A DNA stretch of 48,419 nt, taken from Verrucomicrobiia bacterium (GTDB lineage: Bacteria > Verrucomicrobiota > Verrucomicrobiia > JABWAM01). Shown here piece after piece: positions 32,754 through 47,658 of this stretch. The translations under genes and the position numbers were made by a program. Location of the stretch: contig JABWAM010000001.1 in the NCBI GenBank assembly GCA_013360985.1, positions 1 to 48,419 of the forward strand, written 5' to 3'. Each line of letters begins with the position of its first letter. The stretch's first letter is position 1. The notes under the pieces were generated by a model, which saw only the letters and a list, made by a program, of their open reading frames with translations, made no database searches and was not told the DNA's origin.

Positions 32754-32893
32754 GTTCCAGTCTCCCGATCGACCGGGCTCACCGGTCGCCTTCAGCCCTT
32801 CCATGCGGGCCTGAAAAGGCGAAAAAAACTCCTCCCCGTCTTCCTCGCGGAAACGGCAGGGCGAAAATCCCTTTCGTCTTTCGAAGACTGACC

Positions 32894-32955: not shown

Positions 32956-35067
32956 TCAGCGCGCGCTTCCCGCCTCGGTCCGCCCGTCGATGCCCACTTT
33001 CAACGGTTCGCCGCCCAACGGGATCGCGCCGATGTCCGGTCGCGTCGCGCCTTCGGGACGCAACGGATCGGGCCACTCCTGGGGCAACGTCACCCCAGCC
33101 TTGACGGCCGGACTGTCGGGCCGCAGACGGAGGTCCACCCGATCGGCGAGGTTGGTGCTGAAGGCCACGAACTTCGGGTCGCCGATGACCGAGTGCGCAT
33201 CCCAACCCGCGGCGTAGCGGACCTTGTTCGACTCGGAGAGCGGATGCGTGCGGCTCGACTCGTAATAGTTGGCGGGGATCTTTACGTCGGGATCCGAATG
33301 CCAGTGCAGGTTGCCGTCCATGACGAGGTTGGCGGCGTCGCGCTGGAAGCCCCAGGCCTTCGGGTACTGTTTTCCGCCGCCCACGAACACGTGGAGATTG
33401 TTGAATACGCGCCGTTCAGCCTCGGGATCAAAATGGAACGCCATGCCCGCGGTGTAGCTGTTCAACGCGTGTCCCATCTGGGTGAGCGTGGTGTTCTGGT
33501 ACAGGTAAATGTGTTCCATCGAGATGATGTGGTCGGGGTTGTGGACGAGCCATGCGAGATGTCCGGGGAAAATATGACCCTGCGGCTTCTTGTCGGTCGG
33601 ACGGTTGAACTGCAGGTTCCGCCGCATGTCCACCACGTTGCGGTACAGGTAGATCTTGCCGCCCGGACCGCCGCGCGCGTGCGCGCCGAATCCCGCGACG
33701 CATTGACGAATCAGATTTTGGTAAACGGAGAGGCCGTCGGTGACGTATGGCGTCGGGCTCGACACGTACACGGCGTCGTCCTGCATGTTGTCCACGAGAT
33801 TGTGATGGAACCGGATGTCGCGGCCCGACAGATAGACGCCATCGTGGCCGTCGGTGAACTCGCAATACGCGATGTCCCAGGTGTGATTGAGCGGATAGTA
33901 GAACGTCTCGAACTCGAATCCGCCCTCGGTGGCCAGCACGGCGTGCGTGGGCAACCGCGAAATATGGCGGACGACGCGCTTCTCTTGCTTGCCTTTACCG
34001 GGGATCTCCGGCTCCGCTTCCTGGCCAATGAACGGCGGATAGATCTTCGGCGAATACGCGTACGAGACGTTCTCGGTGCGGAACATCCACGGCGCGATCA
34101 TCCCGAACACGCCGCAGTTCGTCATTTTCAGCGGGCCGGCGCCCTTCGCCCAGATGCCGTACGTGCCCGCGTAGATCGTGCAACGATCGAACGCGATATC
34201 CACGCCGAAGTTGAGTTTGACGGTGATGTAACCGCCGCCGCGGATGACGAGGTCCTGGAACCGCACGTGCATCGCTTGCGAAACGCGCAGCGGGATCGAA
34301 TCCACCGGCGCCACCACCAAGGGCAGCTTGCGCGGGTCGGTTTCTCCCTGGTAATGAACGAGCTTGTGGCCGACCGACTCGGGCAGTTCGAGTTTCGTGT
34401 GGGCCAGGCGCGCGTGGATGCGGCCCGTCTGTTTGTCGTACCAGAGGCCGGGGCCGCAGTACATCGGCTCGACGAATTTCTTAGGATTCGGGATCCACAA
34501 CTCGTTCGTGGCCTGCATGTCCATGCGATACCAGTACGTCTGGAGACCGACGTTCGAGTCACCGAAGAGGCCGACGACATCACGGATGTTCCTGTACGTG
34601 ACGGTGGAGCGATATTCGCCCTCGACGCCGTCGTTCACCGGCTCCCAAGCCTTGCCGGGCGCATTCTGAAACTCGGGGAACCCGCCGTCAATGATCGCCA
34701 CTTCGCCCGGAAACGAGCGAAGGATGATCGGCTTCTCGGGCGCGCCCGCCACGGCGCAATACACGTTCTCGAAATAACTCCCGCCTCGCAGGTAAAGCGT
34801 GTCGCCGGCGGCGATCTGACGCAGGGCATGATTGATGGTTTTCCATGGCGCCTTCTCGCTGCCGTCGTTCGCGTCGCTGCCGCGCGCGGCGTCCACGAAA
34901 CGGGCGGGGCCTTCAGCCCTCGGCCGCTGCGACGGCGTCGGCAACGGTCGCTGGGGTTCATGAGACAAGAACGGTCGGGCCGAGTCCGCGGCGCGCGCGA
35001 TGCCCGCGAACGGAAGCATGCCCAGGGCGAACGCAACGGCCGGGAGGAGGGAGGGAATCGGGCTCAT
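32956..35067 (-). CDS. secreted right-handed parallel beta-helix protein (polysaccharide lyase/hydrolase-like)
   Basis: ATG 35067 lies 2 nt after the upstream stop and gives the signal peptide MSPIPSLLPAVAFALGMLPFAGIARA. GSDANDGSEKAPWKTINHALRQIAAGDTLYLRGGSY is typical of pectate-lyase-fold proteins. ORF 32956-35592 was trimmed. Confidence 0.7.
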   Translation of the reverse strand: MSPIPSLLPAVAFALGMLPFAGIARAADSARPFLSHEPQRPLPTPSQRPRAEGPARFVDAARGSDANDGSEKAPWKTINHALRQIAAGDTLYLRGGSYFENVYCAVAGAPEKPIILRSFPGEVAIIDGGFPEFQNAPGKAWEPVNDGVEGEYRSTVTYRNIRDVVGLFGDSNVGLQTYWYRMDMQATNELWIPNPKKFVEPMYCGPGLWYDKQTGRIHARLAHTKLELPESVGHKLVHYQGETDPRKLPLVVAPVDSIPLRVSQAMHVRFQDLVIRGGGYITVKLNFGVDIAFDRCTIYAGTYGIWAKGAGPLKMTNCGVFGMIAPWMFRTENVSYAYSPKIYPPFIGQEAEPEIPGKGKQEKRVVRHISRLPTHAVLATEGGFEFETFYYPLNHTWDIAYCEFTDGHDGVYLSGRDIRFHHNLVDNMQDDAVYVSSPTPYVTDGLSVYQNLIRQCVAGFGAHARGGPGGKIYLYRNVVDMRRNLQFNRPTDKKPQGHIFPGHLAWLVHNPDHIISMEHIYLYQNTTLTQMGHALNSYTAGMAFHFDPEAERRVFNNLHVFVGGGKQYPKAWGFQRDAANLVMDGNLHWHSDPDVKIPANYYESSRTHPLSESNKVRYAAGWDAHSVIGDPKFVAFSTNLADRVDLRLRPDSPAVKAGVTLPQEWPDPLRPEGATRPDIGAIPLGGEPLKVGIDGRTEAGSAR

Positions 35068-35069
35068 TT

Positions 35070-36239
35070 TTAATCGGGAAGGCATTGGCGAAAGACGCGC
35101 AGGAAATTTTCTCCAAGGATCTTGCGGATCTCGGGCGGACGAAAGCCGCGTCGGACCAATTCGGCGGTCAGCACCGGCAGCTTGTCCACGCGATCGATCT
35201 CGCAGATATCGCCGAGATCGTAGTCCGTTCCCACGCCCACGTGATCCACGCCGGCCACGTCCACCATGCGCGCGATCTGATCCACGAGTTTTCCGACACT
35301 GACGCGGACGATCTTCGTGCCATCCTCCACCGCGCCGCCGAGCGCCTTCGGCCAGGCGTTCGGATCGAAGCGGCGCGCGAGAAATTCGTATGGGTCCTTG
35401 TAACGCCGCTCCAACTCCGTAACCTTTTCGCGGAGAAACTTTTGACGGAAGGCGCGGAGATCGGCGCGCGCGCCATCCGATCCCGCGATGAATCGCGAGG
35501 AAAAATGCGCGCCGACCACTCCGCCCGTGTCGGCAATCGCGCGGAGCTGGTCGTCGGCGCAGTTGCGTTCGACGTCCACCAACGCCCGGCAACAGGTGTG
35601 GGAATCAATCACGGGACGCGTCGCGACCCGCAGCGCGTCGCGGAAACAGCGGTCATTCGCGTGCGCGAGGTCCACCACCATGCCGAGCCGTTCCATTTCT
35701 CGGAGGATCTCCCTGCCCAGCGGCCGCAATCCGACGCGCGGATCGCCGCCGCAATATCCGCCCACGCGCGGATCGCGAAGGAACGGATGCGCCGCGCGGA
35801 CGCCGACGCGCTGGTAGGTTCGCAGCATCGCGAGGTCGCCGTGGATCGGCGCGCCGGTCAGGTGCAGGAGGATGCCGAGTTTACCTTCCCGCAACGCGCG
35901 GTCGAGATCGCCTTTCGTGCGAAGGATCCGCGCATGTGGATGCCGCTCGGCCTCCGCGATCAACGCGTCGAAACAGCGCAGCATGTACTCGATTTCCGCC
36001 GCGCCGCTGAAATGGCTCGGACAATTGTTGCCGTGCGAATAGACAACGACGTCCACGCCGCCCTCGCGGAGCAACGGGACGCTCTGCTGCGCCCACGGAC
36101 GGCGCTGGATAAACATCCGTCGCGCCGACGCCGTTCCGGCGCCATAGTCGAGCCATGGGTTGACGTACCCGAGAACCACGGGCGCGGCGCGGTGGAGCGC
36201 GCGAACGCGGGACGAAATCGCGCGGGATTGGGGTTTCAT
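35070..36239 (-). CDS. membrane-dipeptidase (peptidase M19)-family protein, atypical N-terminal metal site
   Basis: GMVVDLAHANDRCFRDAL, RPVIDSHTCCRAL...ERNCADDQLRAIADTGGVVG, GVDHVGVGTDYD and ILGENFLRVF match M19. The N-terminal HxD motif is not visible (LGYVNPW). Confidence 0.7.
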   Translation of the reverse strand: MKPQSRAISSRVRALHRAAPVVLGYVNPWLDYGAGTASARRMFIQRRPWAQQSVPLLREGGVDVVVYSHGNNCPSHFSGAAEIEYMLRCFDALIAEAERHPHARILRTKGDLDRALREGKLGILLHLTGAPIHGDLAMLRTYQRVGVRAAHPFLRDPRVGGYCGGDPRVGLRPLGREILREMERLGMVVDLAHANDRCFRDALRVATRPVIDSHTCCRALVDVERNCADDQLRAIADTGGVVGAHFSSRFIAGSDGARADLRAFRQKFLREKVTELERRYKDPYEFLARRFDPNAWPKALGGAVEDGTKIVRVSVGKLVDQIARMVDVAGVDHVGVGTDYDLGDICEIDRVDKLPVLTAELVRRGFRPPEIRKILGENFLRVFRQCLPD

Positions 36240-36255
36240 CGGAAAGGCTTCGGGA

Positions 36256-37050
36256 TCAAGGCGTGCCGCCGGAACTCGTGAGAAACCAATCTTCCCGTCC
36301 GGGAGATTGGCAGAGATTGAGGGACGGATGCGCGCCCGACAACCACGCCACATGCGCATCGCAGAACAGCAGGTTCATTCCCCCGCGGTGACCGAGAAAT
36401 CCGTCGGCGCGGGCAAAAGGAACCGAGGGCGAAGGGAGCATGAGAAAGTAATAGGTGGCCGTCTGAGCGGTGGTGTTCTCTTCCTGCCAATATTTGAGCC
36501 AGTTGAACTCGGCGAGAAGGATCTTTTTTTCGGGTCGCACCACGTGGGAGGCGAGACGCGCATCGCCGTTGTCGTAGGCGCCGCCGTTCAGGATATAGCT
36601 CAGCAGCCCCGTTCCCCGGGCCGGAGGCGAAACCGGGGAATCGTTCACGGGCGCCGCGCCGCGCCGGTGCGAAGGATTGGACGGACAATCCCAGGCGGCG
36701 GAGTAGGCATTGCCCGAAACCGGTTTTTGAACGCCGAGATAAGGCTCGATCAGATGATGCCAATAGGAGCCGCCAAACGGCGCGAGGACGCCCCGGTTCT
36801 CCGTCGAATAGACGTTGAACGCGACTCCCAACTGACGGAGGTTGTTCATGCATTGGGCGCTCCGGGCCTGGTCGCGCGCGCTTTTGAGCGCCGGAGTGAG
36901 CAGCGCGGCGAGGACCGCAAGGATCGCGATGACCACCAAAAGCTCGACGAGCGTGAAGCTGTTCACGAATCGAACGCCTTCCCGCGCGGCGGGAAAGTGT
37001 TTCCGCCGCGCCGCCCGCTCCTCGCGACGCTCTCGAAAAACTTGGAACAT
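36256..37050 (-). CDS. prepilin-type N-terminal cleavage/methylation protein, DUF1559/H-X9-DG class pseudopilin
   Basis: [24 protein letters not shown] followed by [20 protein letters not shown]-terminal [15 protein letters not shown] is an H-X9-DA variant of H-X9-DG. Confidence 0.8.
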
Positions 37051-37101
37051 AAAATTTTGGACGGGAGGATGGAGTCGCCCGGTTCCGTCGGATTCGCCGC
37101 G

Positions 37102-38958
37102 TCATTTCCATGGGAGGAGCGCCACCTTGGCGCACTGACGCCCCGCAAACGTCTCGAAAGCGGCCTGAACCTCGTCGAAACCGAAGGTGTGCGTGATCAG
37201 CCGATCGATCGTATTCGGGGAACGGCGGATGAAGTCGAGCAGGTCGTGCGCGTCATTCAGGTTGGTATGCCAACAGCCGACGAGGGTGAGCCCTTTGCGG
37301 ATGAAATCCTTGCTGGGACTGATCGGAATCGTCCCATGGTTCTCCCCCACCATCGCGATCTTGCCGCGGACCGCGGCCAACTCGATCAGCAGCCGTTCGC
37401 CGGATTCCGTGCCGGAACATTCGATCCCGTGGACGACGCCCCGCCCGCGCGTGATCTCCAAGAGTTGCTCCCGGACTTCCGGAACTGTCGAATCGAGAAC
37501 CGCGGAAGCGCCGACCGAGCAAGCCAGTTTTCGACGGTATTCCTCGGGATCGAGCCCAATGACCTCGGCGCCCATGAACGCGGCGAGCGCCACCGCGCCG
37601 AGGCCGACGGGCCCCAACCCGCTGACGATCACCGGGGCGAAGGCGCGCGCGCCCACGGCGCGCACGGCCTCGAACGCGGGGCCGAGTCCGCAACCGAGCA
37701 TCGCGCCATGGAGATCGCTCACGTCCTCCGGCAGTTTCGTGCACATCACGTCCGAAACTTTCGTGAACTGGGCGAAGTTGCCCTGGAATCGGGGGCGGTT
37801 CCGACAGAAGATCACGTCGCCCTTCAGACAATCGTCGCAGATTCCGCAGGCCGTGATCGGGGCGAGGGCGACGCGGTCGCCGGGCTTGAGGCGCGTGCTG
37901 TGCGCGACCGCCACCACTTCACCGGCGCCTTCGTGACCTCCGTTGATCTGCTCGCCGTCGGCGAAAAAGGCCTTCATATTGCTTCCGCAGAGCAGCGTCG
38001 TCCGCAGCCGGAGAACGACCTGATTCCCCTCCGGCCGGGGGAGCGGCTGCTCGACGAGCCAGGCCTTCTTGCGGCCAAGCGCGACGACCTTCATCCGCTC
38101 GGGCAGACGCGGCCGCGGTGTGCGCGTCCACACGTCCTGGAATCGCGCGCCCACTCGGCTCAACACGTCCTCCGGCGGTTGCTCTTTGAACTCGTTCACG
38201 AACGGCTCGGGCGTGACCGGCCCGTCGTATCCGATCGTCCGCAGCGCGTCCAGGAAGCCGGGCAGATCGATCACGCCGGTCTCGCCGTGGACGCGGCGAT
38301 GGTGGTCGGTATGTTGCTCGATGGGAATCCCGGCGGGCGCGTCATTGATGTGAACATAGACGACCTGCTCCGCGCTCAACGCGAGGATGTCTTCGAGAGT
38401 GCCGAGCGACGTGTGCCAATGCCAGGCATCGAGGAGCAGGCCGCAGTTCGGGCCAACCGCTTCGCACAGGTCGAGCATCTGCGAAAGGGTATGGACGAAC
38501 GCGTATTTGCGGCCGTCCCGCAGCGTTTTCGGGCCGAGAAATTCGAGGCCGAGCCGACAACCATGCGTTGCCAATACGCTCGCGATCGGGCCGAGCCGCT
38601 TGATGTGAAATGCGAAATTCTCCCTCCACGGCAGCGTGTCCGACCAGGACGGGACGAACGTGTAGAATCGGACGCAGCCGATTTCACTGGCGATACGGGC
38701 GTGCTGCTCCAGTCGCGCCAATCCTTCGTTCGTCGCCGCGGCGTCGTCGCGGAAGTGGAACGGGAGTTTGCTGCCGCCGGGACGCAGGCCGTGCCGGGCG
38801 AGCGCGTCCGCGTATCGCGACGCGGCGCCGGCCGTCTCGATCTCAAGGTCCGATCCCTCGAAACCGGCGGCCTTCGCCAGCGAGAGCGATTCTTCCCACG
38901 AACATTGCAGACGCAACGTGCTGCGATTCAGGCAACGAAACATGGCTCGTGGGCTCAT
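37102..38958 (-). CDS. fusion protein: xylose-isomerase-like TIM-barrel (sugar phosphate isomerase/epimerase) + Zn-dependent MDR alcohol dehydrogenase
   Basis: 618 aa in one frame with no stop. N-terminal half: LLLDAWHWH, VHINDAP and GYDGPVTPEPF. C-terminal half: LCGSN...GHEGAGEVVAV, structural Zn site CGICDDCLKGDVIFC and Rossmann motif VSGLGPVGLGA. Confidence 0.75.
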   Translation of the reverse strand: MSPRAMFRCLNRSTLRLQCSWEESLSLAKAAGFEGSDLEIETAGAASRYADALARHGLRPGGSKLPFHFRDDAAATNEGLARLEQHARIASEIGCVRFYTFVPSWSDTLPWRENFAFHIKRLGPIASVLATHGCRLGLEFLGPKTLRDGRKYAFVHTLSQMLDLCEAVGPNCGLLLDAWHWHTSLGTLEDILALSAEQVVYVHINDAPAGIPIEQHTDHHRRVHGETGVIDLPGFLDALRTIGYDGPVTPEPFVNEFKEQPPEDVLSRVGARFQDVWTRTPRPRLPERMKVVALGRKKAWLVEQPLPRPEGNQVVLRLRTTLLCGSNMKAFFADGEQINGGHEGAGEVVAVAHSTRLKPGDRVALAPITACGICDDCLKGDVIFCRNRPRFQGNFAQFTKVSDVMCTKLPEDVSDLHGAMLGCGLGPAFEAVRAVGARAFAPVIVSGLGPVGLGAVALAAFMGAEVIGLDPEEYRRKLACSVGASAVLDSTVPEVREQLLEITRGRGVVHGIECSGTESGERLLIELAAVRGKIAMVGENHGTIPISPSKDFIRKGLTLVGCWHTNLNDAHDLLDFIRRSPNTIDRLITHTFGFDEVQAAFETFAGRQCAKVALLPWK

Positions 38959-38977
38959 AAATCGACTTCAACAAATC

Positions 38978-40512: not shown

Positions 40513-41822
40513 CTTCCCACCCAAACGGTTTTCCCCCGCTGCGCCGCCCATGCGGTCATGCGGCGCGGATCGCCTTTCCACAGACGATCCACCGCCCACG
40601 GTCGCGCTTTCGGCGGCCCGTCGCACTCCAACCGAATCACGGGAAACAGATCGGTTGGCGACTTCTCCGGCAATCCCTCGATGGCGAGGTGGTCCGTCGT
40701 CTGTTTGAATCTGAGTTCGCTCCCGGTCGTGAGCAGCACGGCGCGCGTGACCGTCGTTTCGAGCCCGGCCAGCGTGAGCGCGCCGGTCCCGTCCCAGAAC
40801 CGAACGACCAGATACAGATTGCTGCCCTTGCGAATCTGCCTGCCGTGCGTGATGAACTCGCAGACTTCGCCCCGTTCGGAACCGGAGATGCACTCACCGT
40901 GGAGACGCATCCATTTGCCGATGGCGTCCGTGATCGCCACGAATTCGGACGGAAACTCGCCATCGCCGGTCGGCCCGACGTTGAGCAGGAGATTTCCGCC
41001 CTTGCTGGCGCACTCGACGAGTTTGTCGAGCAGCACGTCCGCCGGACGCCAACGTTCTCCCTTCGCGTAGCCCCACAGACGGGAGGTGCTCACGTCGCAC
41101 GATTCCCAGAGACGATGGGGGTCCTCGACGATACGATGCTCCGGCGTGCTGAAATCGCCGAGCGACCGCGATTGTCCGCCCGTGCCCGCCGGATCGTCTT
41201 CATCCCGGCCGAGCCGGTTGTTGATCAGCAGATGCGGCTGGAGCGAACGCATGGTCTGGACGAGTTCATGACTGCCCCATTGACGGGAGGTTTCCGGCCA
41301 CGCGCCGTCGAACCACATCACGTCGATGCGGCCATAGTGCGTCAACAACTCGCGCACCTGATGGTGGACGTACTCGCGGAACGCCGCCCAGCCCCGCGGA
41401 TCATGCTCCGGCCCCTCAAACGCGGCCGGCACTCGCCAGTCGATCATCGAATAATACAGCCCGACCCGCAACCCGGCGGCGCGAAACGCCTCGACGTACT
41501 CGCGGACAAAATCGCGCCGCGGCGCCTGCGCGGCGGAGGTGTAATCGGTGAACTTCGAGTCCCACAGGCAGAATCCGTCGTGATGCCGGGTGGTGAGCAC
41601 GGCGTATTTCATCCCGGCCTGTTTCGCGACGTCGGCCCATGCCGTTGCGTCGAACTTCTGCGGATTCCACCGGCAGGCCCTGGCCTCATAATCGCGCTGG
41701 TCGAGGCGCTCGCGAAACAAGACCTGTTCGCCGCGCCCGTACGCCGCGTACGGACCCCAATGCACGAAGAGACCGAAGCGCGCCTCGTTGAACCATTTCC
41801 AGTGGTCGGGGATGCCGCTCAT
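40509..41822 (-). CDS. alpha-L-fucosidase (GH29)
   Basis: ATG 41822 overlaps the upstream stop (ATGA). WFNEARFGLFVHWGPYA, KYAVLTTRHHDGFCLWDS and GLYYS. Confidence 0.85.
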   Translation of the reverse strand: MSGIPDHWKWFNEARFGLFVHWGPYAAYGRGEQVLFRERLDQRDYEARACRWNPQKFDATAWADVAKQAGMKYAVLTTRHHDGFCLWDSKFTDYTSAAQAPRRDFVREYVEAFRAAGLRVGLYYSMIDWRVPAAFEGPEHDPRGWAAFREYVHHQVRELLTHYGRIDVMWFDGAWPETSRQWGSHELVQTMRSLQPHLLINNRLGRDEDDPAGTGGQSRSLGDFSTPEHRIVEDPHRLWESCDVSTSRLWGYAKGERWRPADVLLDKLVECASKGGNLLLNVGPTGDGEFPSEFVAITDAIGKWMRLHGECISGSERGEVCEFITHGRQIRKGSNLYLVVRFWDGTGALTLAGLETTVTRAVLLTTGSELRFKQTTDHLAIEGLPEKSPTDLFPVIRLECDGPPKARPWAVDRLWKGDPRRMTAWAAQRGKTVWVGR

Positions 41823-43864
41823 TTCGCTTTCATCAGCTCCTTCTCGGGAACGGGAAACGCCCATTTCGCGAAACGACGGGCCTCGCGGATGACGGACGGG
41901 GTGAAGAGCATCCAGCTCCGTCGGTGGTCCTCGCAGAACCGTTGACGGGCCAGTTCGAGTTCGATCAGGCGATCCTTTTGCGAACGGTCGCCGTTCCGAT
42001 AGAGCCGGCCGCGTTCGAGGATCTCAATGCTGATTTGCGACCACGCCAGCGTCCGGGCGAGAAATTGAATCCGATCTCGCACGGCGGGCGGATCGGTGGC
42101 GGCGCGCGCGGTCGCCCGGTCGAGACCGCGGCGCGCCTCCCGGAAAAAGGTTTCGTCGTAGAACGAGGGGCCGTTGCTGTCGTACCACGGCGCCACGCGA
42201 TTCCAGCCCGCGGCGTGTCGTTCGCTGACGCGGCGAATCTGCATGAAATACTCGTGGACCGCCGGCGCGGCCCGTCCGAAACCGGCCGCGCAGTAATCCT
42301 GAATCAACGCGTCCACATCCAGATTCACGTCCCACAACAGGCGCGCCAGCACATAATGCGACAGCCCCATCCCGCCCCAGACATGATATTGCGAATCGAA
42401 ATCCGTTCCGATCAGCCGCGCGCGCCGCACGGCAAAACTCAGGTCCTCGGCGAACGGACGCGTCATGTCGACCGGCAGGCCCATCAGTTGATCGAGCCAG
42501 TTGGGCCGCCACATCATCCGCGCCCCCGTGCGCGCCCAGCCTTCCCACCGGGCGCGTTCGCCGCGGCGGTTCGCCTCGGACAGGTAAGGGTTCGAGCCGA
42601 CGTAGCTGATGACGACGTTCGGATGCACTTTCGCGCGCACCGGCGGCGGGTCGTAGGCGCAGTAGGCGTGGCCGACGAGCAGCAGGTTCGGATGATGCGC
42701 GCTCACGCGCTCGGCGACGGCGTTGTAGAACCGCACCATCCGGTCGCTCAGCGACACGTACTCAAACCATTCCCGCGTCACCGCGTCCTGCAACCGCATC
42801 GGCGGACCGTCCGGTTCGTCCCACGCCTTGCAGCGCGCGCACATGCAATGCCCGGTAAACCCGCCGTCGTTCGGCGAGAGCGAAAAACTCGCCATCTCCG
42901 GCTCCTTGCGAAACGCCTCCTCGATGTCCGCGACCACCTGGTCAATCACCGACGGCGAGCTGTGGCAGAGCTTCACCGCCGTGGGATCTCGCGGCTTGAG
43001 GTCCCGCTGGCCGCACGGTTGCACGGCGAAATACTCGGGATGCGACTCGCCAAAGCGTTCGTACCATCGCTCGTAGGCGTGGCCGGCCCGCACGTCGATC
43101 CCCGACCGCTTCTGCATCCGGTTGCGTAAAGTCCATTGTGTGGATTCCCGCCCCATCTGACGCCATTCGTTCGTCGTCCAGCCCAGCGGCTCCGCGTACT
43201 GTTTTATGAACGTCGCGTTGTTCGCCACGTCGCGCCAGAAGCGGATTCGCACCGACGGCGTCTGACGAACATCGATCGCGTCCGGTAGCGTCACAGTCGC
43301 GCGGCGCGGGATGACCTCGCCGAGGTCGCCCGGCCAGAGCCAGCGCGCGCCGAGAAACTTTTCGCACAGCAACGTCGCGGCATGATGCGTGCCCGGCAAC
43401 GGAACGCGGTCGTCGCCGATTACGAACACCGCGTTGGTGGCGGTCTGGACGACCGCCTCCTCGTAGGCGAATTGCTTCGCGTCCAGCCCGCGTTGACGGG
43501 CGGCCTCCGTCGGCCCGACGTAAACGAGCGTCGTGTTGGACGGCAGGGCGCAGCGGGCCAGTTGCGCTTCGGGCACGATGGGCACGCTCGCGCCGCTCAT
43601 GACCCGCAGGACGTGGGCGAGTTCCTCGCCGGCGAGCTTGCTGGAATAGGCCGCGTTGGCGTTGGTGCTGACCGCCACGACGATCGCGCAGCGCGGCGCG
43701 CCGTTCTCGACGAGGGTGAGTGCGCTGAGCGCCGGAGAGACGCCTGCCGCCAACGCGAGCAGCGCGACGAACCATGCGGCGGGGCGCACGGATGATGCAG
43801 GCCTCAAAACGCGCGACGCCTGGCGCCGCGACCGATCAAGACGCAACATTTTGTGAGCGCGCAT
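41819..43864 (-). CDS. secreted DUF4838-like glycan-active protein (GH20/GH67-N-like fold suspected)
   Basis: 681 aa (alternative ATG at 43849). Arg-rich signal DRSRRQASRVL...AAWFVALLALAAG. SLSPNDGGFTGHCMCARCKAWD resembles the Cys motif I recall for DUF4838. Confidence 0.55.
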   Translation of the reverse strand: MRAHKMLRLDRSRRQASRVLRPASSVRPAAWFVALLALAAGVSPALSALTLVENGAPRCAIVVAVSTNANAAYSSKLAGEELAHVLRVMSGASVPIVPEAQLARCALPSNTTLVYVGPTEAARQRGLDAKQFAYEEAVVQTATNAVFVIGDDRVPLPGTHHAATLLCEKFLGARWLWPGDLGEVIPRRATVTLPDAIDVRQTPSVRIRFWRDVANNATFIKQYAEPLGWTTNEWRQMGRESTQWTLRNRMQKRSGIDVRAGHAYERWYERFGESHPEYFAVQPCGQRDLKPRDPTAVKLCHSSPSVIDQVVADIEEAFRKEPEMASFSLSPNDGGFTGHCMCARCKAWDEPDGPPMRLQDAVTREWFEYVSLSDRMVRFYNAVAERVSAHHPNLLLVGHAYCAYDPPPVRAKVHPNVVISYVGSNPYLSEANRRGERARWEGWARTGARMMWRPNWLDQLMGLPVDMTRPFAEDLSFAVRRARLIGTDFDSQYHVWGGMGLSHYVLARLLWDVNLDVDALIQDYCAAGFGRAAPAVHEYFMQIRRVSERHAAGWNRVAPWYDSNGPSFYDETFFREARRGLDRATARAATDPPAVRDRIQFLARTLAWSQISIEILERGRLYRNGDRSQKDRLIELELARQRFCEDHRRSWMLFTPSVIREARRFAKWAFPVPEKELMKAK

Positions 43865-46310
43865 TTGAAGCCGTCGCGCGTCTTCGCTTCCGCCGCGTCG
43901 TCATCCCCAGCGCCGCGGCGCCGAGCAGGACCAGCGGAAGCGCGGAGGCCTCGGGGATCGGAATGCCCAGCGGGATGAGGGCGCCGCTCCATCCGTCGAA
44001 ATCGTAGATCAGTCCGCTCAGATAGGCGTTGTCGGCAAGATCGGGGTCGTAATAGAGGTTTACATCCAGATCGAGGACGCTCGCCAACGCGTTGGTGTCC
44101 AGGCCGCCGAGGTCCAGCGCGCCCACGTAAAAGGCGTTCACCACGGCGCCGGTGAGTTGCAGGCGGTTCCCCGCGCCGATCTGCAGTTGACCGAGGGAGA
44201 AGTTCGTCGCGAGTTCCGCCACCGAAGCGAAGTTCGATCCGAGGTCCAGGGCGCTGCCGCCGCTGAGATCGAGCACGTGATTGGTGCCGCCGCCCGTCGC
44301 GTTGGTGAAACGCATCGCCGCCGAGGAAAGATCGTGCAGGACGCGGTTCGTGGAGCTCAACGCGAGATCCTTCTGAAACACGAAGAGGTCGCCGTTGCCC
44401 CCCTGCAGCGCGCCCGACGGATCCACCGTCAGCGTGCCGGCGAAGATGTTGGTCGAGGGATCGCTCATGTAGCGGCCTCCGACTACGGCGTTGCTCTGCC
44501 AGGTGACCGTGCTGTTCACGATCCGGATCACGCCGGCGTTGGAGATCGTGCCGGCCACGGTCGCCGACGAGTTGGAGATCAGCATCGTGCCGTCGGCGCC
44601 GAAGGCCAACCACGCGCTCCTCCAGGCGGTCGCTCCGTGGATCATCTCGAGGCCGGCGTAGTTGCTCGGGTTGCCCGCGGCAAAGGTGTAGTTCTGCGCG
44701 TTCGCCGACCAGTTCGAGGCTTGGTTCAGGCGAAAGATGTTGTCGCCCGAGAAGCGCAGGTTCGCGAGATCGTTGCCGCCGAGGCTGCCGCTCACGTCCG
44801 CGTTGGTGATCCCGCGGAACGAGATTGCGCCGCCGTGGATCGAGATCGCTCCCGCGGTGTTGTTGGTGATGACGGGCGCGGCGGTGGTGAACTGAAAGAC
44901 GCCTCCGATGTTGCTGATGCTGCCCGATCCGTTCAGCCCCGCGGCCATCGTGTTGGCTTCGAGCGTGCCGCCATCGGTGACGCGAATGTGGCTGCCCGAT
45001 CCGCTCGTCACGCCGTTGCTGCCGATGGAAACGATCCCGCCGCTTTGCAACATCGAGCCAGTGCCGGTAATGAGCACCAGGTTGCCGGCGGAACTGGCCG
45101 AGACGCCCACGCGCGTCCTGCCGGCCACCGAAACCAGACCGCCGTTGGTGATGATCAAACGGTTCTCGGCGCCGGCGACGCCGATTTCCAGGTCATTCAT
45201 GGCGTTCCATGTCGAGCCGACGCCGGTGACCCGCACGATGCTCCCAGTGGATGCCGCCTGGTTGCCGATGACGCTGGCCCCAGAGCCGGCGCTCACCACC
45301 TCTCCGCCGTCGGCCACGATCATGGTTCCGTTGCCCTGATGGCCCACGATGAGGAAGGAGGTGTTCGACCAAAGCGATCCCGAGCCGGCCGAGCCGGTCA
45401 CGATGACCAGGTTGTTCGAGGAGGAGGCAGCGTTCCCGATGATTCCCGACGCCTGACTGGCGGCGCGGCGGCTGATCACGAGCGCGCCGTTGGAGATGAC
45501 CAACCGGTTGCCGGCGCCGCTGTCGCCGACGTACAGACGGTCGGTGTTGTTCCAGAGCGCGCCGTCGCCGGCAACCCACACGGAGTTGTTGGTGGCTGCG
45601 GCGCCCGAGCCGATGTATCCGAGGGCGTTGTGCAGTTGGGCGCCGTCCTGGATCAAGAGTTGGTTGTCCTTGCCCAGAGTCCCCACGGTGAAATTGCCGG
45701 AGTTGGTCCAGAGCGAGTTGACGCCGGTCAGGATGATCTGGTTGTTGCGGGCGCCGCCGCCGCTGCCGACGACGCCCGACGCGCTGACCACGGTGCCGCC
45801 GTTGGAGACGATCAGCGTGTTGAATTCCGGCGCCGTGCCCGCCCCGCCCACGGTGAAGGAGAGGACGTTGGACCAAACTGATCCGCTCCCCGAGACGAGG
45901 GCGGAGTTGTAGCTGCCCACGCTGCCGATCAGGGCGTTGGTGCTGAACACGAATCCGCCGTCGGCCACCGTCACCGAGTTGCTCTTGGATTCCGCCGCGG
46001 TCGCGCCGACGGTGAGGTCTCCGAGATTTACCCACCTCGAGCCGGTATTGGTCACAAAGGCCGCGTTGCGAGCGCCGCCGCCCGTGCCGAGCGTCCCCGT
46101 GGTGTTGGTGACCGCGCCGCCGTTGGAAATTACGAGCCGGTTGTTCGTCGCAGAGGCCCCGCTGCCGACGGTGAACGGTCCGCCGAAGTTGGTGCTTATG
46201 GCGTTGAAAAGATAGTTGCTGTTGCTTTCGGCCCGGCAAGGGACGACGGCCAGAGCCAGCATCAGCCCCGCGATCCAGGGATGTTCGATGCGTTTCATGA
46301 TCATCTCCAT
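43836..46310 (-). CDS. PEP-CTERM-anchored surface protein with T5SS/PEP-CTERM-associated repeats
   Basis: Signal peptide IAGLMLALAVVPCRA. About 7-8 units of ~52 aa (N-x-L-x-I-S-N-G-G...V-T/S-G-x-G-S-x-W-x-N...L-x-V-G). C-terminal IPEASALPLVLLGAAALGMTTRRKRRR. Confidence 0.8.
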   Translation of the reverse strand: MEMIMKRIEHPWIAGLMLALAVVPCRAESNSNYLFNAISTNFGGPFTVGSGASATNNRLVISNGGAVTNTTGTLGTGGGARNAAFVTNTGSRWVNLGDLTVGATAAESKSNSVTVADGGFVFSTNALIGSVGSYNSALVSGSGSVWSNVLSFTVGGAGTAPEFNTLIVSNGGTVVSASGVVGSGGGARNNQIILTGVNSLWTNSGNFTVGTLGKDNQLLIQDGAQLHNALGYIGSGAAATNNSVWVAGDGALWNNTDRLYVGDSGAGNRLVISNGALVISRRAASQASGIIGNAASSSNNLVIVTGSAGSGSLWSNTSFLIVGHQGNGTMIVADGGEVVSAGSGASVIGNQAASTGSIVRVTGVGSTWNAMNDLEIGVAGAENRLIITNGGLVSVAGRTRVGVSASSAGNLVLITGTGSMLQSGGIVSIGSNGVTSGSGSHIRVTDGGTLEANTMAAGLNGSGSISNIGGVFQFTTAAPVITNNTAGAISIHGGAISFRGITNADVSGSLGGNDLANLRFSGDNIFRLNQASNWSANAQNYTFAAGNPSNYAGLEMIHGATAWRSAWLAFGADGTMLISNSSATVAGTISNAGVIRIVNSTVTWQSNAVVGGRYMSDPSTNIFAGTLTVDPSGALQGGNGDLFVFQKDLALSSTNRVLHDLSSAAMRFTNATGGGTNHVLDLSGGSALDLGSNFASVAELATNFSLGQLQIGAGNRLQLTGAVVNAFYVGALDLGGLDTNALASVLDLDVNLYYDPDLADNAYLSGLIYDFDGWSGALIPLGIPIPEASALPLVLLGAAALGMTTRRKRRRATASNARSQNVAS
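43878..43967 (-). other. PEP-CTERM-like sorting signal (PEAS variant)
   Basis: GIPIPEASALPLVLLGAAALGMTTRRKRRR: a P-E-x motif, a hydrophobic helix and a basic cluster. 13 more residues follow before the stop. Confidence 0.65.
44900..46150 (-). repeat. degenerate tandem coding repeats (~156 nt / 52 aa) inside the PEP-CTERM gene (approximate bounds)
   Basis: Periodicity is seen at the protein level, e.g. NRLVISNGGAV...GSRWVNLGDLTVG; NTLIVSNGGTV...NSLWTNSGNFTVG; NRLVISNGALV...GSLWSNTSFLIVG; NRLIITNGGLV. Confidence 0.55.
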
Positions 46311-47543
46311 TTAGGAATCGGCTCTGGTCGCAAGGACCTTTTCGTTTCGCCGATCTTTCACTTCGCTCAACGCGTCTCTTCCCCCCTCCTCCTTTTCGAG
46401 GCGGCGCCAGTACCCGCCGTGGCCATGTCGTTCCATCGCGAACGCGTCAACGGGTTTCCACTCGCATTTCAATTCCATCCTGGCGGTCGGCGGAATCGGA
46501 ACGAGCGCGCATCGGGTTTCGATCGAGACCGTTCGCAGGGACGGAGATCGCCCCTCCAACACGTCCACCAACGCGCAAACGGCCCTGCGCCCGATTTCTT
46601 CCGCCTCCAGAAACTGGGACCACTGAACCGCATTCGCCTCGACAAATTCCTGACGGGTAAAGGCGGTCGGCAACGGCACGATCAACAAATCACGCGGAGT
46701 CGAGCTCTTCAACTCGAGAGCCGCCGGCAGAAGCGTCGCCCCCCAATCCTGGCTGATGATCGCCGCGTTCTTCAACCCGACCTGCGCGAGGCGGGCGGCC
46801 GCGCCGGCGATCTGGTCCGCGTGGAGCGAACAGAGATGCAGCGCGTGGCGTCCGTCGCCGTATCGTTGGATGGCGGAGGAATAACCGCGGAACAGTTCCA
46901 GCCCCATATGGTAGCGCTCCGTCCGGCTGAGGTCCACATCCAACCATACCGGAGACCGTCCGTTTTTCAGGAGTTCGCGCGTGATCTCAAAACCGAGACG
47001 CTCGCCGTCGAGACGAAACTGCGGGACGTCCAAGGGAAGCGGACAGGTGCCCGTCACCACGTAGAGAACTCCCTGATCTTCCAGGAAACGGAGGTGATGC
47101 TCGCGGATCGCGCCGTCGAGCAGCACGGCGTCCACAGACCTCCGTCGGAGCATCTCCGGCGTCCGCCCCTGGACCAAATCGGTGCTGGAAAACTCTCCGA
47201 TGAGCAGTTCGAAGCCCGCAAGGTTCGCCGCGCGCTGGATCCCCGAGGTCAGCCTCTGGCTGTAGGCGGTCGCGCTATTGCGCGGATCCACATAAAACAG
47301 GCCGAGACGGTGGCGCAGGCGGCGGGGCGCGCGCTGACGCGGAGCGAGAAAGGTGCCGCGCCCATGGGCGCGATGGATGATCCCGTCGCGGCAGAGCTCG
47401 TCGTTGGCGAGGCGCACCGTGCTGTAGGCCACGCGCAGCGCGACCGCCAACTCCCGCTCGGAAGGCAGCGGATCGCCCGGGCGCAGCTTCCGCGCGCGAA
47501 TCAGCCGTCGGATATCGGCGGCCACCTGATGATGTCGAGCCAT
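46311..47543 (-). CDS. GntR-type wHTH + LacI/PBP-type sugar-binding-domain transcriptional regulator
   Basis: Internal ATG 47543 gives MARHHQVAADIRRLIRARKLRPGDPLPSERELAVALRVAYSTVRLANDELCRDGIIHRAHGRGTF (GntR wHTH). A periplasmic-binding-protein-like domain follows. The stop TAA abuts the next ATG (46310/46311). Confidence 0.75.
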   Translation of the reverse strand: MARHHQVAADIRRLIRARKLRPGDPLPSERELAVALRVAYSTVRLANDELCRDGIIHRAHGRGTFLAPRQRAPRRLRHRLGLFYVDPRNSATAYSQRLTSGIQRAANLAGFELLIGEFSSTDLVQGRTPEMLRRRSVDAVLLDGAIREHHLRFLEDQGVLYVVTGTCPLPLDVPQFRLDGERLGFEITRELLKNGRSPVWLDVDLSRTERYHMGLELFRGYSSAIQRYGDGRHALHLCSLHADQIAGAAARLAQVGLKNAAIISQDWGATLLPAALELKSSTPRDLLIVPLPTAFTRQEFVEANAVQWSQFLEAEEIGRRAVCALVDVLEGRSPSLRTVSIETRCALVPIPPTARMELKCEWKPVDAFAMERHGHGGYWRRLEKEEGGRDALSEVKDRRNEKVLATRADS

Positions 47544-47549
47544 GAATAA

Positions 47550-47564
47550 AGTGCGTGGTGCACT
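47550..47564. promoter_or_regulatory. palindrome AGTGC-N5-GCACT just upstream of the regulator start (candidate GntR-type operator)
   Basis: Lies 7-21 nt 5' of ATG 47543. It contains the GT...AC core typical of GntR-family operators. Confidence 0.3.
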
Positions 47565-47658
47565 GCGCAGTAAAAACGCGACGGGAGGGGAACGCAAGCT
47601 TTTTCGCGTTTTTTCAACGCGCTCTCTTCGCCTCGACGCAAAGACTCGCGACGCGCGA

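What the first reader, a model, noticed from the sequence alone, without database searches (positions are those of the whole stretch)
32956..47543. Ten-gene, single-strand, translationally coupled glycan locus joining an exosortase-type surface protein and a pseudopilin to fucosidase and oxidoreductase catabolism
Seen in sequence: every CDS from the GntR/PBP regulator (start 47543) to the beta-helix protein (stop 32956) is on the minus strand. The junctions are tight. TAA abuts ATG at 46310/46311. There is a 14-29 nt overlap at 43836-43864. Three consecutive ATGA overlaps follow (41819-41822, 40509-40512, 39421-39424), then gaps of only 19, 51, 16 and 2 nt. Gene order: regulator, PEP-CTERM repeat protein, DUF4838-like, GH29 alpha-L-fucosidase, Gfo/Idh/MocA, RidA, TIM-barrel::Zn-ADH fusion, DUF1559 pseudopilin, M19-like, beta-helix. 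Established knowledge: GH29 cleaves terminal fucose. PEP-CTERM proteins are exosortase cargo. DUF1559/H-X9-DG proteins are prepilin-processed, hugely expanded in Planctomycetes and Verrucomicrobia, and functionally uncharacterised. Inference: this may be one regulon for capture (repeat protein, pseudopilin), depolymerisation (beta-helix, DUF4838, GH29) and oxidative catabolism (two dehydrogenases, isomerase-ADH fusion, RidA, M19-like) of a fucosylated glycan or glycopeptide. That would be a PVC-style alternative to SusC/D PULs. I do not know this exact combination as a described system.
Basis: partly seen in the sequence, partly recalled or inferred. Interest (0 to 1): 0.72.

Follow-up and report, generated by a model that had tools for sequence, protein, structure and literature searches.

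The report
Verrucomicrobial glycan-breakdown operon, conserved odd core
Ten tightly packed genes in an uncultured Verrucomicrobium look like one regulated operon for digesting a fucose- and amino-sugar-bearing glycan; it is a mosaic, but about half of its genes form an uncharacterised module that recurs in related bacteria.

Summary
All ten minus-strand genes, every junction and every family call were confirmed. The window is a whole contig of an NCBI 'Verrucomicrobiae bacterium' MAG.

The ten-gene order is kept only in a near-identical strain. At 75% and 66% identity of the TIM-barrel::Zn-ADH fusion, the neighbours already differ. GH29, the Gfo/Idh/MocA gene and the PEP-CTERM protein were seen only here.

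A subset does recur in about eight independent PVC loci, in varying combinations and orders:
- the GntR/sugar-binding regulator
- a DUF1559 pseudopilin
- the M19-like protein
- a Rid1-type RidA
- the TIM::ADH fusion
- the beta-helix protein
- DUF4838

Eighty loci holding ordinary M19 genes carry none of these partners.

The 'M19 dipeptidase' belongs to a rare clade that lacks three of the five zinc ligands, so it is probably not a dipeptidase. DUF4838 is the domain of the HexNAc-cleaving families GH163 and GH185. The beta-helix protein belongs to a large, highly conserved family with no characterised member.

Best reading: a sugar-induced operon with four exported proteins and a cytoplasmic fucosidase plus redox/deamination module, acting on a nitrogen-bearing sugar. 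The chemistry is inferred. No transporter is encoded in the locus.

The parts
46311..47543 (-). AraR-type regulator: GntR helix-turn-helix domain plus LacI-type periplasmic-binding-protein sugar-binding domain. First gene of the unit.
   Evidence: Pfam GntR 2.4e-16 and Peripla_BP_1 6.5e-06. Orthologues at 34-37% identity over about 90% of the length sit next to the M19-like/RidA genes in L088 and L089.
47544..47658 (-). 115-nt intergenic region between the SIS gene and the regulator; the likely promoter/operator region.
   Evidence: Sequence. It holds short palindromes at 47550-47564 and 47605-47621, but the first motif is at chance level in the window.
43836..46298 (-). Secreted repeat protein with a Sec signal peptide, T5SS/PEP-CTERM-associated repeats and a PEP-CTERM-like C-terminal anchor.
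   Evidence: TIGR04393 4.2e-38, five stretches. PF07589 scores 18.3 bits, below the 20.7 cutoff, with 'IPEAS' + TM + RRKRRR. It was not found in any related locus.
41819..43849 (-). Exported DUF4838 protein (the GH163/GH185-type domain). Predicted N-acetylhexosaminidase-like glycosidase.
   Evidence: PF16126 8.7e-45; signal peptide visible. Orthologues at 35-37% identity lie next to M19-like genes in L091, L093 and L094. The domain's known activities are described in PMC10570127.
40509..41822 (-). GH29 alpha-L-fucosidase with no signal peptide, so cytoplasmic.
   Evidence: PF01120 3.4e-83. Best PDB matches are 6gn6 at 1.6e-87, then 2wvv at about 5e-61. N-terminus. Absent from all related loci except the near-identical L083.
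39421..40512 (-). Cytoplasmic Gfo/Idh/MocA NAD(P) oxidoreductase.
   Evidence: PF01408 9.8e-22. Only weak matches to IolG, UDP-GlcNAc 3-dehydrogenase, glycoside 3-dehydrogenase models and DgpA. No orthologue in related loci.
38978..39424 (-). Rid1-type RidA family imine/enamine deaminase.
   Evidence: PF14588 and PF01042. Best PDB matches are PA0814 at 6.6e-24 and ACIAD3089, both Rid1 (PMC5619798). The catalytic Arg (R124) is invariant in locus-linked homologues. Homologues at 41-87% identity occur in L086, L088, L089 and L177.
37102..38943 (-). Fusion of a xylose-isomerase-like TIM barrel with a Zn-dependent threonine/polyol-type dehydrogenase.
   Evidence: PF01261 1e-28, PF08240 and PF00107. 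About 63 full-length homologues at 45-95% identity. The E/D/H/E residues of the barrel, the Cys/His/Glu catalytic-Zn residues, four structural-Zn Cys and the GLGPVGLG motif are all invariant. AF2 pLDDT 86.6; PDB matches cover the ADH half only.
36256..37050 (-). DUF1559 / H-X9-DG prepilin-type pseudopilin.
   Evidence: N_methyl 25.9 bits, DUF1559 33.4 bits, TIGR04294 20.4 bits. FTLVELLVV core with Ser at -1, and 'DAH' in place of 'DGH'. Pseudopilin genes are also present in L089, L091 and L177.
35070..36239 (-). Non-canonical M19-like protein ('pseudo-dipeptidase'), cytoplasmic in this organism.
   Evidence: PF01244 4e-65. Relative to human renal dipeptidase it has H20->Y, D22->N and E125->T, and keeps H198, H219, R230 and D288. 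The clade is rare: about 25-30 of the best 150 representatives, against 11,978 M19 relatives.
32956..35085 (-). Secreted right-handed beta-helix protein (Pel9A-like beta-helix family). Last gene of the unit.
   Evidence: Signal peptide. More than 1,440 homologues, many about 70% identical, and none that carries a name has a functional one. AF2 pLDDT 91.4. Nearest folds are GH120, GH141, GH136 and PL9, at TM 0.35-0.6 and 10-14% identity. Orthologues in L086, L088, L091 and L177.
32822..32861 (-). Terminator-like GC hairpin followed by T7, about 95 nt after the beta-helix stop. Possible 3' end of the unit.
   Evidence: Sequence and coordinates. The local hairpin appears in the fold, but the region as a whole is not significant (z = -0.3), and the pattern scan did not call it.

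Best explanation
This is one sugar-responsive catabolic operon of an uncultured Verrucomicrobium, headed by an AraR-type GntR/sugar-binding regulator.

Four products are exported:
- a beta-helix glycanase of an uncharacterised family
- a DUF4838 (GH163/GH185-like) HexNAc-type glycosidase
- a PEP-CTERM-like surface repeat protein
- a DUF1559 pseudopilin, which presumably equips a type-II-secretion or type-IV-pilus-like machine for this substrate

The exported enzymes would cut a complex glycan that carries fucose and N-acetylhexosamine. The fragments enter the cell through a transporter encoded elsewhere.

Inside the cell, GH29 removes fucose. A conserved module then processes a nitrogen-bearing sugar product. 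That module is the non-canonical M19-like protein, a Rid1-type imine deaminase and the TIM-barrel::Zn-dehydrogenase fusion, joined here by a Gfo/Idh/MocA oxidoreductase.

The route I consider most likely is oxidation next to the amino or acetamido carbon, followed by TIM-barrel isomerisation or elimination. The M19-like protein would either hydrolyse the amide or hand the substrate over. RidA would hydrolyse the resulting imine/enamine to release ammonia, and the dehydrogenase domain would perform a reduction.

Shown: the gene content, the junctions, the family memberships, the predicted localisation, the altered M19 metal site, and the recurrent linkage of these genes. Inferred: co-transcription, the substrate, and every chemical step.
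For: Operon build: nine junctions of at most 51 nt, five of them overlapping or abutting. Internal promoter-like and terminator-like sites are at chance level.

Localisation: signal peptides or a prepilin leader on four proteins and none on five.

Recurrent linkage:
- L088 (Phycisphaeraceae MAG): GntR, M19, RidA and beta-helix on one strand, with the fusion and a second M19 nearby.
- L089: GntR, pseudopilin, a GH123_N-like protein, M19 and RidA on one strand, with the fusion nearby.
- L177: AraC, pseudopilin, DHDPS, M19, RidA, two beta-helix genes, a 2-hydroxyacid dehydrogenase and the fusion on one strand.
- L091: DUF4838 followed by M19, then GntR and beta-helix, plus pseudopilins.
- L093 and L094: M19 next to DUF4838.
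- L086: RidA, fusion and beta-helix.
- Identities are listed.

Control: 80 loci (691 kb) around ordinary M19 genes hold none of the other nine proteins or the upstream SIS protein at E <= 1e-5.

Regulator: orthologues (34-37% identity) travel with the M19/RidA/fusion core, not with GH29.

A nitrogen-bearing substrate is suggested by the Rid1 protein with its invariant catalytic Arg and by DUF4838 being the domain of the HexNAc-cleaving GH163 and GH185.

Partner enzymes elsewhere point to complex host- or algal-type glycans: sulfatases, a BNR sialidase-like protein, a GH123_N-like protein and a NanA-type DHDPS.

Gfo oxidoreductases paired with 'sugar phosphate isomerase' proteins are the enzymes of the 3-keto elimination route (bioRxiv 10.1101/2024.03.25.586180).

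All catalytic and metal residues of both halves of the fusion are invariant.
Against: - There is no transcript evidence.
- No transporter, TonB-dependent receptor or carbohydrate-binding module is in the locus.
- The ten-gene order is not conserved beyond a near-identical strain.
- The fusion also occurs without any of these partners: in L081 it sits among MGH1-like glycosidases, and in L001-L007 it stands alone.
- The beta-helix gene also occurs alone.
- With three Zn ligands lost, the M19-like protein may have no catalytic activity at all, like PvdM. That would remove the proposed amide-hydrolysis step.
- The Gfo protein matches no characterised enzyme above cutoff.
- The context sample is small (about eight independent loci) and was not drawn at random.
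Confidence: 0.6

Rival explanations
1. The ten genes are two or three independent units that merely lie head-to-tail in a compact, strand-biased genome. These would be regulator + surface protein; DUF4838-GH29-Gfo-RidA; and fusion-pseudopilin-M19-beta-helix. They would have no shared substrate.
For: The largest gaps (19-34 nt and 51 nt) fall exactly at these block borders. Relatives shuffle or drop the blocks. Most confirmed genes of the contig are on the same strand, and other tight junctions exist outside the locus. A 12-bp GC hairpin at 36984-37011 lies just inside the annotated 5' end of the pseudopilin gene.
Against: The recurrent links cross the proposed block borders: DUF4838 with M19, RidA with M19, and RidA with the fusion. 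No promoter-like or terminator-like excess is seen. Gaps of 51 nt or less are typical within operons.
Confidence: 0.15
2. The core handles peptides or glycopeptides rather than sugars. The M19-like protein would bind or cleave a D-amino-acid or dehydro-amino-acid peptide, for example from peptidoglycan or glycoprotein. A dehydrogenase would make an imine, and RidA would deaminate it.
For: M19 enzymes are dipeptidases. Non-hydrolytic PvdM-type relatives bind peptides and are linked to D-amino-acid-oxidase-like enzymes. Arg230, which I recall as the carboxylate-binding residue of renal dipeptidase, and Asp288 are retained. Rid1 proteins deaminate amino-acid-derived imines in vitro. A subtilisin-type S8 peptidase lies next to the M19-like gene in L094.
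Against: His20 and Glu125 are essential in human renal dipeptidase and are lost across the clade. The neighbours are overwhelmingly glycan-active enzymes and sugar-type regulators and redox enzymes, not peptide transporters or peptidases. The regulator carries a LacI-type sugar-binding domain.
Confidence: 0.15
3. The locus remodels the cell's own surface instead of feeding the cell. It would trim or mature glycans on the PEP-CTERM-like surface protein or on the exopolysaccharide.
For: From general knowledge, PEP-CTERM proteins are usually tied to exopolysaccharide loci. The surface protein's gene abuts the regulator and is overlapped by DUF4838.
Against: The PEP-CTERM-like protein is absent from every related locus. 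No glycosyltransferase, exosortase or polysaccharide export gene is present. The cytoplasmic GH29 and redox enzymes and the AraR-type regulator fit catabolism better.
Confidence: 0.07

Closest known systems
Bacteroidota polysaccharide utilisation loci (SusC/SusD PULs) and TonB-dependent carbohydrate utilisation (CUT) loci of Proteobacteria and Verrucomicrobia (PMC5615132)
   Same: A regulator, exported glycan-cleaving enzymes and downstream catabolic enzymes are co-localised, with the same logic of extracellular cutting followed by intracellular finishing.
   Different: There is no SusC/SusD pair, no TonB-dependent receptor and no inner-membrane transporter. A pseudopilin and a PEP-CTERM-like protein take the places where binding and uptake proteins would be expected.
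Gene clusters of Verruconatronum alginivorum (Opitutales) holding most alginate-up-regulated proteins, one with an embedded PulG-like pseudopilin (PMC13274419)
   Same: It is a Verrucomicrobiota CAZyme cluster that contains one of many paralogous pseudopilin genes, and proteomics in that work showed its genes to respond to substrate.
   Different: The substrate and enzymes differ (alginate lyases and the Kdg/Kdu pathway). That cluster has no M19-like, RidA, TIM::ADH, DUF4838 or beta-helix-family genes.
3-keto-glycoside oxidation/elimination clusters (AL1-5 / BT enzymes; bioRxiv 10.1101/2024.03.25.586180), and from general knowledge the levoglucosan and C-glycoside (DgpA/B/C) pathways
   Same: A Gfo/Idh/MocA oxidoreductase is paired with an enzyme annotated 'sugar phosphate isomerase', the same annotation the source databases give this fusion's TIM-barrel half. 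There it acts as a 3-keto-glycoside lyase. DgpA is among the weak PDB matches of the Gfo protein.
   Different: There is no DUF1080 partner and no second Gfo reductase. The proteins here are cytoplasmic, not periplasmic. The TIM barrel is fused to a Zn-ADH. All matches are far below family cutoffs.
PvdM-type non-hydrolytic M19-like proteins (PMC9305348; PDB 3B40)
   Same: It has the M19 fold with the bridging Glu and other Zn ligands replaced. 3B40 is the second-best PDB match. Like PvdM homologues, it is genetically tied to oxidoreductases and to metabolite-processing pathways.
   Different: The PVC clade keeps His198, His219, Asp288 and Arg230 and loses three ligands rather than four. It is cytoplasmic here, though several homologues carry Tat-like signals. 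It is linked to glycan enzymes and RidA, not to TonB receptors or siderophore genes.
Thermotoga maritima inositol route IolG / IolM / IolN / IolO (recalled from the literature, not checked here)
   Same: It combines a Gfo-type dehydrogenase, a Zn-ADH (the IolM model matches the ADH half at 3.7e-33) and a xylose-isomerase-like TIM-barrel enzyme in one oxidative, non-phosphorylative route.
   Different: All scores are far below the equivalog cutoffs (114.7 bits against 450). There are no kinase or aldolase partners. RidA, M19-like and glycosidase partners have no counterpart in that route.

Membership tests
SusC/SusD-type PUL | An adjacent susC (TonB-dependent transporter) and susD gene pair. 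| tested here: not met
   Pfam and NCBIfam scans of all ten products show neither, and the ten genes leave no room for another.
TonB-dependent CUT locus | A TonB-dependent receptor together with glycosidases, a regulator and an inner-membrane sugar transporter. | tested here: not met
   There is no receptor or transporter in the locus or in its flanking genes, which are the SIS protein, tRNA-Thr and tuf.
Bacterial operon (single transcription unit) | Same strand, short or overlapping junctions, and no internal terminators. | tested here: met
   Actual co-transcription cannot be tested with these tools.
GH29 alpha-L-fucosidase | Significant match to the GH29 catalytic domain and to solved GH29 enzymes. 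| tested here: met
   PF01120 scores 280 bits against a cutoff of 25.2. PDB 6gn6 matches at 1.6e-87. Catalytic residues were not checked one by one.
Peptidase M19 (renal-type dipeptidase) | A binuclear Zn site formed by His20, Asp22, Glu125 (bridging), His198 and His219. | tested here: not met
   The fold match is strong (4e-65), but His20 is Tyr, Asp22 is Asn and Glu125 is Thr. This holds across the clade. His20 and Glu125 are essential in the human enzyme.
PvdM-type non-hydrolytic M19-like proteins | Bridging Glu replaced; periplasmic location; linked to TonB-dependent uptake. | tested here: inconclusive
   The bridging Glu is replaced. However, the window protein has no signal peptide and no TonB receptor lies nearby. 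It retains more ligands than PvdM.
Rid family, deaminase-competent subfamilies (RidA, Rid1-3) | The Arg equivalent to RidA Arg105. | tested here: met
   R124 aligns with that Arg and is invariant in five locus-linked homologues. The best PDB matches are Rid1 proteins.
DUF1559 / H-X9-DG prepilin-type proteins | An N-terminal methylation motif, the DUF1559 domain and a C-terminal H-X9-DG motif. | tested here: met
   N_methyl scores 25.9 against 21.2, DUF1559 33.4 against 23.3, and TIGR04294 20.4 against 19. The variants are Ser at -1 and 'DA' in place of 'DG'.
PEP-CTERM exosortase cargo | A C-terminal PEP motif, a TM helix and a basic tail scoring above the family cutoff, with an exosortase in the genome. 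| tested here: inconclusive
   PF07589 scores 18.3 bits, below the 20.7 cutoff. The motif reads IPEAS, followed by a TM helix and RRKRRR. The TIGR04393 repeats are clear. An exosortase cannot be looked for on a single contig.
GH163 / GH185 (DUF4838 glycosidases) | The DUF4838 catalytic domain, plus family-level similarity to BT1035 or Sp_0475 and their catalytic residues. | tested here: inconclusive
   The domain is present at 153.7 bits. No solved relative is found by sequence.
3-keto-glycoside oxidation/elimination cluster | A Gfo-type 3-dehydrogenase, a TIM-barrel or DUF1080 lyase/hydratase, and a Gfo-type reductase. | tested here: inconclusive
   Gfo and TIM-barrel proteins are present. 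DUF1080 is absent. The BT_2158/BT_2159 models match only at 20-33 bits against cutoffs of 650-750.
AraR-type GntR regulators | A GntR winged-helix domain fused to a LacI/GalR-type sugar-binding domain. | tested here: met
   PF00392 and PF00532 both score above cutoff.

The most novel reading that the evidence does not exclude
The recurrent core encodes an undescribed PVC pathway. The core is the Y-N-T-type M19-like protein, a Rid1 deaminase, the TIM-barrel::Zn-ADH fusion, the beta-helix family and DUF4838, under an AraR-type regulator and with a dedicated pseudopilin.

In this reading, new glycosidase families release acetamido sugars from complex glycans. The cell then catabolises them without phosphorylation, in four steps: oxidation beside the nitrogen, TIM-barrel-catalysed elimination or isomerisation, removal of the acyl group or channelling by the remodelled M19 protein, and RidA-assisted loss of ammonia.

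The substrate-specific pseudopilin would adapt a secretion or pilus machine to each glycan. That would give DUF1559 proteins their first concrete role.
Probability: 0.2. Interest if true: 0.8.

Novelty: new variant of a known kind. Interest (0 to 1): 0.5.

Why it matters
PVC bacteria are major degraders of complex and sulfated glycans, but they lack SusC/D systems, and how their loci are organised is poorly understood. This locus gives three concrete leads.

1. A conserved but shuffled gene set marks an unassigned catabolic route, probably for a nitrogen-bearing sugar.
2. Two enzyme families are ripe for characterisation. One is a very large, highly conserved beta-helix family. The other is a rare M19 clade with a rebuilt metal site.
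3. It provides a defined, regulator-linked context in which a DUF1559 pseudopilin could be deleted and tested. This family is hugely expanded and still has no known function.

Tried and rejected
- Metagenome scan with the M19-like subfamily alignment. The tool chose generic M19 motifs and returned only ordinary dipeptidase loci (40% identity or less). No new subfamily contexts came out. I reused the set as a negative control.
- tblastn of the ten proteins against 80 genome loci anchored on the fusion. Most loci held only the ADH half (Poribacteria and others) and were uninformative. Only L008 shared partners.
- Sequence search of DUF4838 against the PDB gave no hits. The same search for the beta-helix protein gave only marginal N-terminal-cap matches.
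- Foldseek with the fusion model returned only ADH-domain matches and said nothing about the TIM half.
- Operator hunting upstream of the regulator. The palindromes are at chance level, and I make no claim from them.
- The fold of the region downstream of the beta-helix gene is not significant overall. I list the local hairpin + T7 only as terminator-like.
- I considered whether the SIS protein upstream (47659-48294) belongs to the unit. I left it out because of the 115-nt gap and its absence from related loci: its only match, in L033, is 26% identical and not near module genes.
- I considered and rejected a classical fucose pathway. No isomerase/kinase/aldolase set, enolase-type fuconate dehydratase or microcompartment genes are present.

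Full report
**What the window is**

An exact-sequence look-up shows that the window is a complete 48,419-nt contig of an NCBI metagenome-assembled genome named 'Verrucomicrobiae bacterium'. The proteins are NUN92182 to NUN92190, with locus tags HUU04_00xxx. G+C content is about 64%.

**Check of the observation**

- The regulator's stop codon TAA abuts an ATG at 46311/46310.
- The PEP-CTERM gene's end is overlapped by the DUF4838 start by 14 or 29 nt.
- Three ATGA overlaps are present, at 41819-41822, 40509-40512 and 39421-39424.
- The remaining gaps are 19, 51, 16 and 2 nt.

Gene callers elsewhere chose two slightly different starts: 38943 for the fusion and 35085 for the beta-helix gene. With these, the 19-nt gap becomes 34 nt and the 2-nt gap becomes a 16-nt overlap.

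Every family call was confirmed by Pfam and NCBIfam. The one soft spot is the PEP-CTERM motif. It scores 18.3 bits against a cutoff of 20.7, and the motif reads IPEAS rather than PEP. The five T5SS/PEP-CTERM-associated repeat stretches are clear.

Promoter-like and terminator-like sites inside the locus are no more frequent than in shuffled sequence. Rfam finds only two tRNAs.

Same-strand orientation is not remarkable here, since most confirmed genes from about 7.9 kb onward are on the minus strand. The evidence for an operon is the tight junctions.

**Borders of the unit**

Upstream, a 115-nt gap separates the regulator from a SIS-domain gene. Downstream, the beta-helix stop is followed in turn by:
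- a TTGACA-17-TAGAAA promoter-like site
- a GC hairpin with a T7 run (32822-32861)
- tRNA-Thr, tuf, tRNA-Trp, nusG and rplK

**Where the products go**

The PEP-CTERM-like protein, DUF4838 and the beta-helix protein have signal peptides, and the pseudopilin has a prepilin-type leader. GH29, Gfo, RidA, the fusion and the M19-like protein have no signal peptide. That makes four exported proteins, five cytoplasmic ones and a regulator. No transporter is encoded.

**Is the gene order conserved?**

No. A contig whose fusion protein is 95% identical (L083, 97.6% nucleotide identity overall) keeps the order GH29-Gfo-RidA-fusion-pseudopilin-M19-beta-helix.

At 75% identity of the fusion (L086) the neighbours are RidA, a HepT toxin, a WbsX-like protein, a URO-D-like protein and a beta-helix gene on the opposite strand. 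At 66% (L081) they are MGH1-like glycosidases, other TIM barrels and MFS transporters.

I fetched 80 loci from species-representative genomes using the fusion as anchor. Only one, a Phycisphaeraceae MAG, shares other genes of the locus.

**What does recur**

I looked at contexts anchored on the fusion, on the M19-like protein and on the beta-helix protein. These show a gene set that travels together in changing order.
- **L088:** GntR, M19, RidA and beta-helix on one strand; the fusion, a second M19, a sulfatase, a Gfo, three aldo-keto reductases and two HpcH aldolases nearby.
- **L089** (from a 7.7-Mb genome): GntR, pseudopilin, a GH123_N-like 977-residue protein, M19 and RidA on one strand; then AraC, a second pseudopilin and the fusion.
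- **L177:** AraC, pseudopilin, DHDPS, M19, RidA, two beta-helix genes, a 2-hydroxyacid dehydrogenase, the fusion, an RraA-like protein and a third beta-helix gene, all on one strand.
- **L091:** Laminin_G_3, pseudopilin, DUF4838 followed by M19, GntR and beta-helix.
- **L093 and L094:** M19 next to DUF4838, together with a sulfatase, FG-GAP proteins, a BNR sialidase-like protein, a Gfo and an MFS transporter.

Identities to the window proteins in these loci:

| Protein | Identity to the window protein |
|---|---|
| M19-like | 37-58% |
| RidA | 41-87% |
| Beta-helix | 45-70% |
| DUF4838 | 35-37% |
| Regulator | 29-37% |

As a control, 80 metagenome loci (691 kb) around ordinary M19 genes contain none of the other nine proteins or the upstream SIS protein at E <= 1e-5.

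GH29, the Gfo gene and the PEP-CTERM-like protein were not found in any of these loci. The fusion and the beta-helix gene also occur without the module.

**The M19-like protein is not an ordinary dipeptidase**

I aligned it with Sco3058 (PDB 3id7) and with human renal dipeptidase (1itq). The HxD motif has become Y-V-N, and the bridging Glu has become Thr. His198, His219, Arg230 and Asp288 are kept.

All members of the subfamily share this pattern, including the 37%-identical L177 copy. Ordinary M19 proteins in the same alignment keep H, D and E.

In a profile search of 1.84 billion representatives there are 11,978 M19 relatives at E <= 1e-10. Among the best 150, only about 25-30 show the Y-x-T type pattern, and 98 show H-D-E.

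His20 and Glu125 are essential in the human enzyme. PvdM, whose structure 3B40 is the second-best PDB match, is a documented non-hydrolytic M19 relative with lost ligands.

This clade is therefore either a mononuclear enzyme with a different chemistry or a binding and hand-over protein. Several homologues carry Tat-like signals.

**The other core proteins**

- **RidA.** It is closest to the Rid1 proteins PA0814 and ACIAD3089. Both are active imine deaminases. The catalytic Arg is invariant.
- **Fusion.** It belongs to a family of about 63 full-length members. The TIM-barrel metal residues, the catalytic and structural zinc residues and the NAD motif are all invariant. Its ADH half resembles threonine and polyol dehydrogenases. 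No solved structure covers both halves.
- **DUF4838.** This is the catalytic domain of GH163, an endo-beta-N-acetylglucosaminidase that acts on complex N-glycans, and of GH185, a 6-sulfo-GlcNAcase.
- **Beta-helix protein.** It has more than 1,440 homologues, many about 70% identical, and none that carries a name has a functional one. A confident model (pLDDT 91.4) is only loosely similar to GH120, GH141 (an alpha-L-fucosidase, from general knowledge), GH136 lacto-N-biosidases and PL9, at TM 0.35-0.6 and 10-14% identity. This is a glycan-active fold with no characterised family.
- **GH29.** It matches solved GH29 alpha-L-fucosidases, best 6gn6.

**How it most likely works**

The regulator senses a sugar. 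The exported beta-helix and DUF4838 enzymes cut a complex glycan outside the cytoplasm. The pseudopilin probably serves their secretion or the handling of the substrate. This is plausible because a Verrucomicrobiota isolate carries a PulG-like pseudopilin, one of 67 homologues, inside one of two gene clusters that held most alginate-up-regulated proteins.

Fragments then enter the cell by a transporter encoded elsewhere. GH29 removes fucose.

The conserved cytoplasmic proteins then deal with a nitrogen-bearing sugar. The presence of a competent imine deaminase and a HexNAc-type glycosidase points that way. So do the sialidase-like, GH123_N-like, sulfatase and NanA-type partners seen elsewhere.

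One coherent chemical scheme borrows from the 3-keto elimination route, in which Gfo oxidoreductases work with TIM-barrel 'sugar phosphate isomerases' that are really lyases. In this scheme:
1. The sugar is oxidised next to the acetamido carbon.
2. Elimination gives an enamide.
3. The M19-like protein removes the acyl group or channels the substrate.
4. RidA hydrolyses the imine.
5. The ADH half carries out a reduction.

Every step of this scheme is inference.

**Comparison with known systems and novelty**

The locus works like a polysaccharide utilisation locus, but it fails the defining tests for both SusC/D PULs and TonB-dependent CUT loci. It resembles the pseudopilin-containing CAZyme clusters now being noticed in Verrucomicrobiota.

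I file it as a new variant of a known kind. The ten-gene arrangement itself is a local mosaic. The interesting part is the recurrent, uncharacterised core.

The NCBI record already annotates each gene with its family name where a family is known, so the gene calls themselves are not new.

Noticed in passing
window 35070-36239 (-); also L088, L089, L091-L094, L177: The annotated 'membrane dipeptidase' belongs to a rare M19 clade. In it the Zn ligands His20, Asp22 and Glu125 are replaced by Tyr, Asn and Thr, while His198, His219, Arg230 and Asp288 are kept. Some members carry Tat-like signal peptides.
   Followed up: yes
window 32750-35000 and 38250-39000, compared with L083: A contig from another sample is nearly identical across GH29, Gfo, RidA, the pseudopilin and M19. 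Its 219 differences are concentrated in the beta-helix gene and in the N-terminal half of the fusion's TIM-barrel domain. The pattern looks like recombination patches or strain-level diversification of exactly these two genes.
   Followed up: partly
window 32956-35085 (-): The beta-helix protein belongs to a very large family (more than 1,440 hits) that is unusually conserved for a secreted enzyme: many members in Planctomycetota and Verrucomicrobiota MAGs are about 70% identical. None that carries a name has a functional one. In L175 and L177 it sits in tandem with paralogues.
   Followed up: partly
window 36984-37011: A 12-bp GC-rich inverted repeat with a 4-nt loop lies inside the long (31-residue) annotated leader of the pseudopilin gene. 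Either the true start is further downstream, or there is an RNA hairpin at the 5' end of this gene.
   Followed up: no
window 31365-32804 (-): The longest tuf ORF runs over tRNA-Thr (32678-32753), so the real EF-Tu start must lie downstream of the tRNA. The EF-Tu domain begins at residue 92 of that ORF.
   Followed up: no
window 26147-29785 (-): Directly after rplK there is no rplA. Instead come a second Gfo/Idh/MocA oxidoreductase (28523-29785), a phosphodiesterase/sulfatase-like protein (27437-28360) and a DUF11/CARDB-repeat protein (26147-27337).
   Followed up: no
window 13384-18518 (-): Three consecutive large ORFs (362, 835 and 478 residues) have coding-like GC3 but no Pfam match. They are preceded on the same strand by an SGNH/GDSL hydrolase gene at 18519-19685.
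   Followed up: no
L081, L086, L087: A URO-D-like gene (the uroporphyrinogen decarboxylase / methyltransferase family) lies next to or near the TIM::ADH fusion in two lineages that lack the M19-like gene. This may be an alternative partner.
   Followed up: no
window 7926-8939 (-): A XerC/D-type tyrosine recombinase gene lies between infC and hemB.
   Followed up: no
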